Origin: a virus
Taxonomy: Duplodnaviria > Heunggongvirae > Uroviricota > Caudoviricetes
DNA length: 6,623 bases
Direction: 5' to 3' (one strand)
Virus record (IMG/VR): IMGVR_UViG_3300029181_000086
Part shown: one piece after another, positions 652 to 1,190 of the stretch
Layout of the letters: each line of letters begins with the position of its first letter
Numbering within the stretch: position 1 is the first letter of the stretch
Translations under genes and position numbers: made by a program
The notes under the pieces: model-generated
Seen by the model: the letters and a program-made list of their open reading frames with translations, nothing else
The model's database searches: none
What the model was told of the DNA's origin: nothing

Positions 652-843
652 TCATACCTGGTCTCTCTCATCTGCTTCTGCTTTCGCCACCATCATTTCC
701 AGCTTTTGTGAAAGGGATGCGGCTAACGTATGAAATTCTTCGTCTGTTTCTACTGGTATTGGCACAAACCTGACTCCAATTTGAGCGAGGCTATGTGCCA
801 TCTCGATACACGTTCTTAACTCAACAGGAGATGCTTTGTGCAT
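652..843 (-). CDS. Hypothetical 63-aa ORF, possibly the 3' remnant of a lambda exo-like gene
   Basis: ORF with a GGGGGG run 7-12 nt upstream of ATG 843. The internal segment IEMAHSLAQIGVRFV weakly resembles the lambda Exo C-terminus (..[21 protein letters not shown]) as recalled, but the ORF continues 30 aa past where Exo ends. Identity is uncertain. Confidence 0.3.
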   Translation of the reverse strand: MHKASPVELRTCIEMAHSLAQIGVRFVPIPVETDEEFHTLAASLSQKLEMMVAKAEADERDQV

Positions 844-959
844 ACAGCCCCCCGTTTATTATTTATCTCCTCAGCCAGCCGCTGTGCTTTCAGGGGATTT
901 CTGATAACAGAAAGGCCGGGAAATACCCAGCCTCGCTTTGTAACGGAGTAGACGAAAGT

Positions 960-1190
960 GATCGCACCTATCAGAACATGCGGGCCAATGCGCTTACTGA
1001 TGCGGAATTACGGCGCAAGGCTGCCGATGAACTGACCTGTATGACAGCGCGAATTAACCGTGGTGAGACGATACCTGAACCAGTAAAACAACTTCCTGTT
1101 ATGGGCGGTAGACCTCTAAATCGTGCACAGGCTCTGGCGAAGATCGCAGAAATTAAAGCTAAGTTCGGACTGAAAGGAGCAAGTGTATGA
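960..1190 (+). pseudogene. C-terminal remnant of a lambda-P-like replication protein (N-terminal two-thirds absent)
   Basis: The last ~70 aa of ORF 795..1190 (YQNMRANALTDAELRRKAADEL...PEPVKQLPVMGGRPLNRAQALAKIAEIKAKFGLKGASV) match the lambda P C-terminus as I recall it. The first ~58 aa of the ORF do not look like P. The stop overlaps the ren start (GTATGA), as in lambda. Start coordinate is approximate. Confidence 0.6.

What the first reader, a model, noticed from the sequence alone, without database searches (positions are those of the whole stretch)
652..1190. Deletion scar joining the exo-xis region directly to a P C-terminal remnant
Leftward exo-xis-type ORFs end at about 843, and a rightward lambda-P C-terminus begins at about 960. 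Nothing resembling bet, gam, N, cI, cro, cII or O lies between them. That implies one deletion removed recombination, immunity and replication-initiation functions, explaining a cryptic state. The junction also creates a chimeric ORF (795..1190) with a non-P N-terminus fused in frame to the P C-terminus.
Basis: partly seen in the sequence, partly recalled or inferred. Interest (0 to 1): 0.4.

Follow-up and report, generated by a model that had tools for sequence, protein, structure and literature searches.

The report
DLP12 prophage deletion scar at TA
This is a clean deletion scar in the well-known DLP12 cryptic prophage of E. coli that removed the phage's recombination, immunity and replication genes; the scar itself is ordinary, but it belongs to a large set of related scars that nearly all break at the same few "TA" positions, which no known mechanism explains.

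Summary
The finding is real, but the breakpoint needs correcting. The window is a K-12-type DLP12 prophage: 1276-6623 is 100% identical to MG1655. The truncated orf60a (DUF1317, 816-970, minus strand) is joined directly to the last 73 codons of replication gene P (969-1190) at a shared TA (969-970). Against the living phage PhiR34_1 the window is collinear except for one 5,792-bp gap. That gap removes exo, bet, gam, the cI-like repressor, cro, cII, O and 160 codons of P. The single-deletion, cryptic-state interpretation is therefore supported, and the chimeric ORF 795-1190 exists. As a kind of thing this is known: K-12 itself carries exoD'/peaD' remnants.

Two results go beyond the finding. 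(1) The segment carrying the junction (at least 720-1001, at most 499-1230) is identical to a different, non-DLP12 prophage with the same junction, so the scar was probably imported by homologous exchange. (2) Of about 35 distinct junction types in about 190 related loci, 25 cross over at a TA. Breakpoints are reused (site A has about 10 partners, Z has 5) and GG-TA is preferred (p≈4e-9). The enzyme responsible is not identified.

The parts
43..261 (-). TraR/DksA-type zinc-finger gene (lambda orf73-like), part of the retained exo-xis block
   Evidence: Pfam zf-dskA_traR E=2.8e-9; annotated as TraR/DksA in relatives
360..641 (-). orf61-like gene (93-aa ORF here; relatives annotate the 71-aa version, window 360-575)
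   Evidence: no Pfam family
652..843 (-). orf63 homologue (DUF1382), intact
   Evidence: Pfam DUF1382 1-60 of 60, E=7.9e-32
816..970 (-). orf60a (DUF1317) remnant lacking its first 10 codons; left arm of the scar (site A, lambda 31323)
   Evidence: Pfam DUF1317 profile 11-60 of 60, E=2.7e-31; homology to intact phages ends at 970
969..970 (.). TA dinucleotide shared by both parental sequences: the crossover point
   Evidence: base-level alignments to both parental contexts
969..1190 (+). last 73 codons and stop of replication gene P (site Z, lambda 40062 onward)
   Evidence: PGAP annotates the equivalent stretch as 'replication protein P, incomplete' in relatives
795..1190 (+). chimeric ORF: 58 residues read antisense through orf63/orf60a, fused in frame to the 73 P residues; no promoter-like site upstream
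   Evidence: no gene with exactly this product on record
720..1001 (.). minimal extent of the junction-bearing patch (at most 499-1230) that is identical to the non-DLP12 prophage L259/FG92-1 type and differs from DLP12-type references; probable imported segment
   Evidence: mismatch maps
1187..1489 (+). ren, intact; K-12's IS3C insertion point (about 1275-1277) is unoccupied here
2144..3670 (+). ybcK, an intact large serine recombinase; the only 2-bp-crossover enzyme encoded near the scars; a candidate agent, not shown to be involved
   Evidence: Pfam Resolvase + Recombinase + Zn_ribbon_recom; 100% identical in phage PhiR34_1; present in only 1,424 of 5,426 complete genomes

Best explanation
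Window 652-1190 holds one clean deletion junction of a DLP12-type lambdoid prophage. Codon 10 of orf60a (lambda 31323) is joined to codon 161 of P (lambda 40062) at a shared TA (969-970). No bases are added or lost at the join. The missing DNA is 5.8 kb in PhiR34_1 coordinates, 6.9 kb in prophage L152 and 8.7 kb in lambda. It carried exo-bet-gam, the immunity region, O and most of P, so the prophage can no longer be induced or replicate (shown by comparison). In this strain the scar most likely arrived by homologous recombination: a patch of 0.3-0.7 kb around the junction is identical to another prophage family that carries the same junction, while the flanks are K-12-type DLP12 (inferred from the mosaic pattern). 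The original event belongs to a family of at least 25 junction types that all cross over in a TA. These junctions reuse a small set of breakpoints and favour GG-TA or TA-CC. That points to a conservative break-and-rejoin process with a 2-bp stagger at preferred sites, not random microhomology repair (inferred). The enzyme is not identified. The neighbouring large serine recombinase YbcK is only a candidate.
For: The junction was mapped at base level against lambda, PhiR34_1, L152 and eight E. coli genomes. Pfam confirms both remnants and the content of the gap. Window 1276-6623 is 100% identical to MG1655 DLP12. Mosaic pattern: 0 mismatches to L259 over 499-1230 against 24 and 21 mismatches in the flanks; 16 mismatches to DLP12-type L152 within 720-1073 and none in 1-719. 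L259 carries the identical junction string in a ren-ninB-dam background. The TA class comprises 25 TA junction types against 10 others, while TA makes up 5.1% of dinucleotides. 15 of 20 sites have GG-TA or TA-CC against 74 of 482 background TA sites, p=4e-9. Only positions -2 and -1 are significant in an orientation-aware profile of 29 sites. Site A pairs with Z, X, Y, W, U, rrrD, L152 7658, L152 13913 and a nin-region site, and, from its other side, with F in K-12. Z pairs with A, B, G, Y and a dam-gene site. In every TA junction the base to the left of TA comes from the left parent and the base to the right from the right parent.
Against: The window is only 6.6 kb, so the rest of the prophage, including its integration site and any second copy of early genes, cannot be seen. 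The direction of the exchange (into DLP12 or out of it) is inferred only from three other junction alleles (A-Y, A-rrrD, and A-Z in L259) sharing the patch haplotype in non-DLP12 contexts. For the mechanism: 10 junction types are ordinary (0-9 bp of non-TA microhomology). No extended recombinase-type motif or dyad symmetry was found. No inversions were seen. Selection for losing lethal early genes shapes which left-right pairs survive. If choices are restricted to about 74 GG/CC-flanked TA sites, general reuse is only mildly improbable (p≈0.1); only the heavy use of hubs A and Z remains striking.
Confidence: 0.8

Rival explanations
1. The scars are made by the prophage's own large serine recombinase YbcK (2144-3670). 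It would act promiscuously on pseudo-sites with a TA core, deleting the DNA between two sites in a single conservative step.
For: Serine recombinases cross over at a 2-bp core, and all TA junctions are exact 2-bp exchanges. ybcK is intact, 100% conserved in the viable phage PhiR34_1, and lies 1.2 kb from the scar. Multi-targeting large serine recombinases with a conserved core dinucleotide and relaxed flanks are documented (PMC10083194). A moron-type gene is plausibly expressed in lysogens (inference).
Against: At least five TA junction types (A-Y in FG92-1, A-Z in L259, A-rrrD in S43, A-nin in L245, Y-Z in L258) sit in prophages with no ybcK nearby. ybcK is present in only 26% of complete E. 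coli genomes. No motif extends beyond ±4 bp and no TA-centred dyad site was found. A palindromic TA core should also give inversions, and none was seen. One junction (L257) keeps the TA with zero microhomology, which fits a 5' overhang better than the 3' overhang a serine recombinase leaves.
Confidence: 0.15
2. The scar is an ordinary, random illegitimate deletion (replication slippage or end joining at 2 bp of microhomology), and the TA is coincidental.
For: Microhomology of 2 bp is typical of such events. Ten junction types in the same loci are of this ordinary kind: TG, TT, GGT, TGG, ATCC, CATGC and 0 bp.
Against: 25 of 35 junction types use TA, against 5% expected. The same nucleotide positions recur with different partners and in three left-arm haplotypes: GATCGCACC, GATCGCGCC and GATTGCGCC. 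The GG-TA preference has p=4e-9.
Confidence: 0.08
3. A TA-specific DDE transposon (IS630/Tc1-like) once sat at these sites. Adjacent deletions or composite excision, followed by precise loss of the element, left single-TA scars.
For: TA target duplication with a short, roughly palindromic target preference is the hallmark of that superfamily (background knowledge). Nested deletion series with one fixed end (A-, B- and Z-series) resemble IS-mediated adjacent deletions. The L257 junction fits a 5'-TA overhang.
Against: None of about 190 loci has an insertion flanked by a duplicated TA. Only IS629, IS3 and IS2 were found, each with its usual 3-5 bp duplication. None of the sites used is CTAG, the IS630 preference. 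Every junction would need an insertion plus a deletion plus a precise excision. GG flanks occur equally on the retained and the deleted sides, which argues against recognition of element ends.
Confidence: 0.07
4. The scars arise by DNA gyrase (type II topoisomerase) subunit exchange at preferred cleavage sites, as proposed for hotspot illegitimate recombination in lambda.
For: The published gyrase consensus contains GGCGGTAT|NNNN|ATACCGCC (PMC6379681 supplement). Sites K and W read GGCGGTA. Hotspot reuse is characteristic of this pathway (background knowledge).
Against: The consensus puts cleavage one base beyond the TA, with a 4-nt stagger. With any 4-nt stagger, about half the junctions should carry the partner's flanking base, and none of 25 does. 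Site A would be cut to the left of the sequence that is in fact retained.
Confidence: 0.04

Closest known systems
DLP12 cryptic prophage of E. coli K-12 (xisD'-exoD'-peaD'-renD::IS3-emrE-ybcK...)
   Same: Same prophage: window 1276-6623 is 100% identical to MG1655, with the same gene order ren-emrE-ylcJ-ybcK-ybcL-ybcM-ybcN-ninE-ybcO. Like K-12 it has lost the early region and keeps a P C-terminal pseudogene.
   Different: The decay history differs. K-12 has two junctions (xisD'|orf60a-exo' and exo'|P', 312 nt of P left) plus IS3 in ren. The window keeps orf73-orf61-orf63-orf60a', has one junction (221 nt of P left) and has no IS3.
Escherichia phage PhiR34_1 (PV340559.1) and the intact prophage L152 (IMG/VR)
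   Same: Collinear with the window at 98.7-99.4% identity; YbcK is 100% identical.
   Different: They retain the 5.8-6.9 kb from exo to P that the window lacks; PhiR34_1 is a plaque-forming phage.
NCBI assembly GCA_012992665.1, contig AATOJX010000015.1 (L259)
   Same: Identical A-Z junction, with 100% identity to window 499-1230.
   Different: Different prophage family: lambda-type ren, ninB, dam, ninE, ninX, Q, lysozyme and trkH downstream, with no emrE or ybcK.
Multi-targeting large serine recombinases (Durrant et al. 2022, PMC10083194)
   Same: Conserved 2-bp core with relaxed flanking specificity; precise, conservative junctions.
   Different: Those enzymes integrate elements. They have non-palindromic cores (TT, AA) and AT-rich flanks. 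Here the events are deletions at a palindromic TA with GC-rich flanks, and no link to an enzyme has been shown.
TA-bounded excision by Tc1/mariner/IS630 transposases and ciliate IES elimination
   Same: DNA segments bounded by TA are removed, leaving a single TA.
   Different: No transposase or element was detected. The excised segments are ordinary phage genes with variable ends.

Membership tests
DLP12 cryptic prophage | Gene order ren-emrE-ylcJ-ybcK-ybcL-ybcM-(ylcH)-ybcN-ninE-ybcO, with near-identity to the K-12 locus | tested here: met
   0 mismatches in 5,348 nt against NC_000913 568034-573381; Pfam domains
DLP12 cryptic prophage | Integration at argU with intD at the left end | not testable with these tools
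   The window starts inside the exo-xis block. Relatives with the same left arm have intD and DUF4222 immediately to the left.
DLP12 cryptic prophage | Defective: lacks immunity and replication-initiation genes | tested here: met
   A single 5,792-bp gap against PhiR34_1 covers exo to P codon 160.
Lambda replication protein P (remnant) | Sequence homology to the P C-terminus, followed by overlapping ren | tested here: met
   Phage_lambda_P profile 124-162 of 162, E=1.7e-5 (25.1 bits, just below the 26-bit cut-off because it is a fragment); 92.5% nucleotide identity to lambda 40062-40555
Lambda orf60a / DUF1317 (remnant) | Match to DUF1317, positioned between orf63 and exo | tested here: met
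   Profile 11-60 of 60, E=2.7e-31; the first 10 codons and exo are absent.
Serine-recombinase-mediated site-specific deletion | Conservative exchange at an identical 2-bp core in both partners | tested here: met
   25 junction types with a shared TA and no gain or loss of bases
Serine-recombinase-mediated site-specific deletion | Partner sites share an extended (about 40 bp), partly dyad-symmetric recognition sequence | tested here: not met
   Only the two bases next to the TA are significant; no TA-centred dyad scores above background.
Serine-recombinase-mediated site-specific deletion | Recombinase available wherever the junctions formed | tested here: inconclusive
   ybcK is present in cis in DLP12-type loci but absent from five junction-bearing prophages, and is in only 26% of genomes. 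Spread of junction alleles by homologous recombination could reconcile this.
IS630/Tc1-type TA-target transposition | An element flanked by a duplicated TA at the sites used | tested here: not met
   Only IS629, IS3 and IS2 with 3-5 bp duplications were found.
Gyrase-mediated illegitimate recombination | Crossover within a 4-nt staggered cleavage site matching the gyrase motif register | tested here: not met
   The register is off by one base, and no junction carries the partner's flanking base.

The most novel reading that the evidence does not exclude
Decay of lambdoid prophages in E. coli is driven largely by a dedicated, still unidentified break-and-rejoin activity with a 2-bp stagger. This activity would cut at TA dinucleotides, preferring (C)(C)GG-TA. 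It would reuse a few hotspots (orf60a codon 10 and P codons 33, 161 and 207), and it would repeatedly excise the lethal early region. The phage-borne large serine recombinase YbcK, or another TA-specific recombinase or nuclease, would then be a 'prophage-grounding' enzyme. The resulting scars would spread between prophages by homologous recombination.
Probability: 0.3. Interest if true: 0.75.

Novelty: new member of a known kind. Interest (0 to 1): 0.4.

Why it matters
On its own the scar only documents another decay allele of the commonest E. coli cryptic prophage. The wider pattern matters more. If most large deletions that ground these prophages occur at a handful of TA sites, then prophage domestication is partly a site-directed process and not random erosion. 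That is directly testable with PhiR34_1 lysogens. The mosaic patch also shows that a grounding deletion can move between unrelated prophages by recombination. One event could thereby inactivate several prophage lineages.

Tried and rejected
1. Gyrase: I retrieved the published 133-bp consensus. The GGCGGTAT half-site resembles sites K and W, but the cleavage register and the 4-nt stagger do not fit.

2. Rpn/YhgA nucleases: they show no sequence specificity.

3. RusA (cuts 5' of CC; background knowledge): the CC lies on opposite strands in A-X, A-Y and A-W, so symmetric Holliday-junction resolution cannot give these deletions.

4. TA-duplicating insertion sequences: none found.

5. A native YbcK site: no TA-centred dyad turned up in the window or in PhiR34_1. 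The boundaries of the cargo region downstream of ybcK show only gradual mosaic decay.

6. Control set of 80 lambda-type ren loci without ybcK: no TA deletions. These are mostly intact, recently acquired prophages, so the comparison is uninformative.

7. The REL606 junction first looked like a TA junction but is a TT microhomology.

8. The exact window junction was not found in 5,426 complete E. coli genomes, in GTDB species representatives, in the JGI metagenome scan, or as the 131-aa product. It was found only through the 70-aa P' product.

9. Literature searches for ybcK, for DLP12 breakpoints and for TA deletions found no earlier description of the pattern.

Full report
IDENTITY OF THE WINDOW

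The ORF list and sequence show two blocks. On the left is a leftward block of lambda exo-xis genes. On the right is a rightward block: P', ren, emrE, a 508-aa recombinase, ybcL, ybcM, ybcN, ninE and ybcO.

Pfam assigns:
- 43-261(-): zf-dskA_traR
- 652-843(-): DUF1382 (orf63)
- 816-968(-): DUF1317, profile positions 11-60 of 60
- ORF 795-1190, residues 58-96: Phage_lambda_P, profile 124-162 of 162
- 1557-1889: EmrE
- 2144-3670: Resolvase + Recombinase + Zn_ribbon_recom, a large serine recombinase
- 4135-4686: PBP
- 5708-6163: NinB-like

Window 1276-6623 is 100% identical (0 mismatches in 5,348 nt) to the DLP12 cryptic prophage of MG1655. The position where K-12 carries IS3C in renD is unoccupied.

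THE JUNCTION

Homology to lambda and to intact relatives runs from the left edge to 970 (lambda 31323). It resumes at 969 (lambda 40062). Base-level alignments show ...GATCGCACC-TA-TCAGAACATG.... The TA is present in both parents: orf60a reads GCGCC-TA-CCCGG and P reads ACCTG-TA-TCAGA.

Positions 816-970 are orf60a lacking its first 10 codons, and P starts at the Tyr codon at 969-971. The chimeric ORF 795-1190 is real: 58 antisense-derived residues followed by 73 P residues. It has no promoter-like site upstream. No gene with exactly this product is on record.

WHAT IS MISSING

The viable phage PhiR34_1 carries the complete DLP12 layout: int, DUF4222, traR, orf61, orf63, exo, bet, gam, cI, cro, cII, O, P, ren, emrE, ylcJ, ybcK, ybcL, ybcM, ybcN and onward. 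The window aligns to it as two collinear blocks around one gap of 5,792 bp.

Against the intact prophage L152 the gap is 6,944 bp. It contains full-length DUF1317, YqaJ exonuclease, RecT, Gam, an S24/HTH repressor, a YdaS-type Cro, YdaT and Phage_rep_O, as well as P. The interpretation that one deletion removed the recombination, immunity and replication-initiation genes is supported.

THE SCAR WAS PROBABLY IMPORTED

The 70-aa P' product (978-1190) is on record in 189 blocks of assemblies. One of these, L259 (GCA_012992665.1), has the identical junction string. Its background is different: lambda-type ren, ninB, dam and so on through to trkH.

Mismatch maps show the following:
- The window has 0 differences from L259 over 499-1230, but 24 differences in 73-498 and 21 in 1231-1462.
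- Against DLP12-type L152 it has 0 differences in 1-719, 16 in 720-1073, and few after that.
- FG92-1 (junction A-Y) and S43 (junction A-rrrD) share the same patch haplotype.

The window is therefore a K-12-type DLP12 carrying a patch of another prophage family, at least 720-1001 and at most 499-1230, and the patch contains the junction. A double crossover between prophages is the simplest account. The direction of transfer is an inference.

A FAMILY OF TA JUNCTIONS

I mapped junctions in three groups of loci. The first was nine annotated E. coli genomes. The second was about 170 IMG/VR and metagenome loci. The third was eight loci found through P'. This gave about 35 distinct junction types, and 25 of them cross over at a TA present in both parents.

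Breakpoints are reused in different combinations:
- Site A (orf60a) pairs with Z, X, Y, W, U, a lysozyme-gene site, L152 7658, L152 13913 and a nin-region site. In K-12 its other side is joined to xisD'.
- Z pairs with A, B, G, Y and a dam-gene site.
- B pairs with T, Y and Z.
- H is used from both sides.

K-12's own two junctions, xisD'|orf60a and exoD'|peaD', are both of the TA type.

TA makes up 5.1% of dinucleotides in this region. 15 of 20 sites have GG-TA or TA-CC, against 74 of 482 background TA sites (p=4e-9). An orientation-aware profile of 29 sites, tested against 200 null samples, finds only the two bases next to the TA significant.

Ten junction types are ordinary, with non-TA microhomology of 0-9 bp, so the method does not force TA. 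No inversions were seen.

MECHANISM

In every TA junction the flanking base on each side comes from the parent on that side. This fits a 2-bp stagger and excludes a 4-nt stagger. Gyrase is rejected on that ground, and also because its published consensus places cleavage one base beyond the TA.

Rpn nucleases lack sequence specificity. No TA-duplicating insertion sequence is present.

YbcK is a mechanistically attractive candidate, given its 2-bp core chemistry, its position next to the scars, and its conservation in living phages. Several observations count against it:
- Five TA junction types lie in prophages without ybcK.
- ybcK is in only 26% of complete genomes.
- No extended site motif or dyad symmetry exists.
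- One junction (L257) suggests a 5' overhang.

I conclude that a site-preferring TA break-and-rejoin process exists and that its agent is unknown. I put YbcK at about 0.15.

NOVELTY AND SCORES

As an object, the scar is a new allele of a known cryptic prophage, whose decay is already annotated in K-12. Literature searches found no earlier description of the TA-hotspot pattern. That pattern, together with the evidence that scars spread by recombination, is why I score interest at 0.4 and not lower.

Noticed in passing
window 3680-5525 (downstream of ybcK): This stretch is a replaceable cargo slot. Relatives that are near-identical on both sides carry different genes here instead of ybcL-ybcM: P22_AR_C plus a 260-aa protein, or VasI-like. 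In one locus PRTase-CE + NADAR replace ren-emrE-ybcK as well. Homology decays gradually at both edges.
   Followed up: partly
L152 2620-2623 (equivalent to a few bases right of window 970 in intact phages); loci L094, L012: An IS629 copy (1,310 bp) is inserted 4-7 bp to the right of hotspot A. The target CCCGGA resembles the CCCCGGG of the IS629 terminal repeat. IS629 and IS3 also sit in P (L043, FT130), and IS3 sits in ren (K-12).
   Followed up: partly
L152 8279 and L152 9498-9503 (O and P genes of intact relatives): Two further breakpoints are reused by non-TA junctions. CTGG|CCGGATT is joined to two different left partners through TGG or CTGGC. CCTG-TA-TCCGGA is used by L254 (ATCC overlap) and by L257 (no overlap; the right-hand piece starts exactly at the TA). 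A CCGGA motif recurs next to several hotspots: A, B, X, rrrD and these two.
   Followed up: partly
window 1275-1277: This is the exact position where K-12 MG1655 carries IS3C inside renD. It is empty here, so ren is intact although the flanking 5.3 kb is identical to K-12.
   Followed up: yes
window 1557-1889 and 2144-3670; phage PV340559.1: Viable, plaque-forming E. coli phages (PhiR34_1, Lambda_4C10, 3W and others; 12 records at 95-100% identity) carry the multidrug efflux gene emrE and the large serine recombinase ybcK in their nin region. These 'K-12 chromosomal' genes are therefore cargo of living phages.
   Followed up: partly
E. coli genome collection: ybcK occurs in 1,424 of 5,426 complete genomes (26%). 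Sequences matching the orf60a/P' junction region occur in 3,750-4,569 genomes. The recombinase is much less widespread than the lambdoid segments that carry the scars.
   Followed up: no
window 360-641 (-): The orf61-like ORF is 93 aa here and in L259, but relatives annotate it as 71 aa. It matches no Pfam family.
   Followed up: no
window 912-934 (-) and around 1932: There is a terminator-like hairpin on the minus strand inside the orf60a remnant, and a 14-of-20 dyad between emrE and ylcJ. Both are at the level expected by chance in shuffled sequence.
   Followed up: no
L258 (Logan SRR26342668), P gene: An otherwise intact lambda-type prophage (N, sieB, cI, cro, cII and O all present) has only a 382-bp TA-to-TA deletion inside P (sites Y-Z). 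This is the same segment that distinguishes junction A-Y (FG92-1) from A-Z (the window), which is consistent with stepwise, nested deletions.
   Followed up: partly
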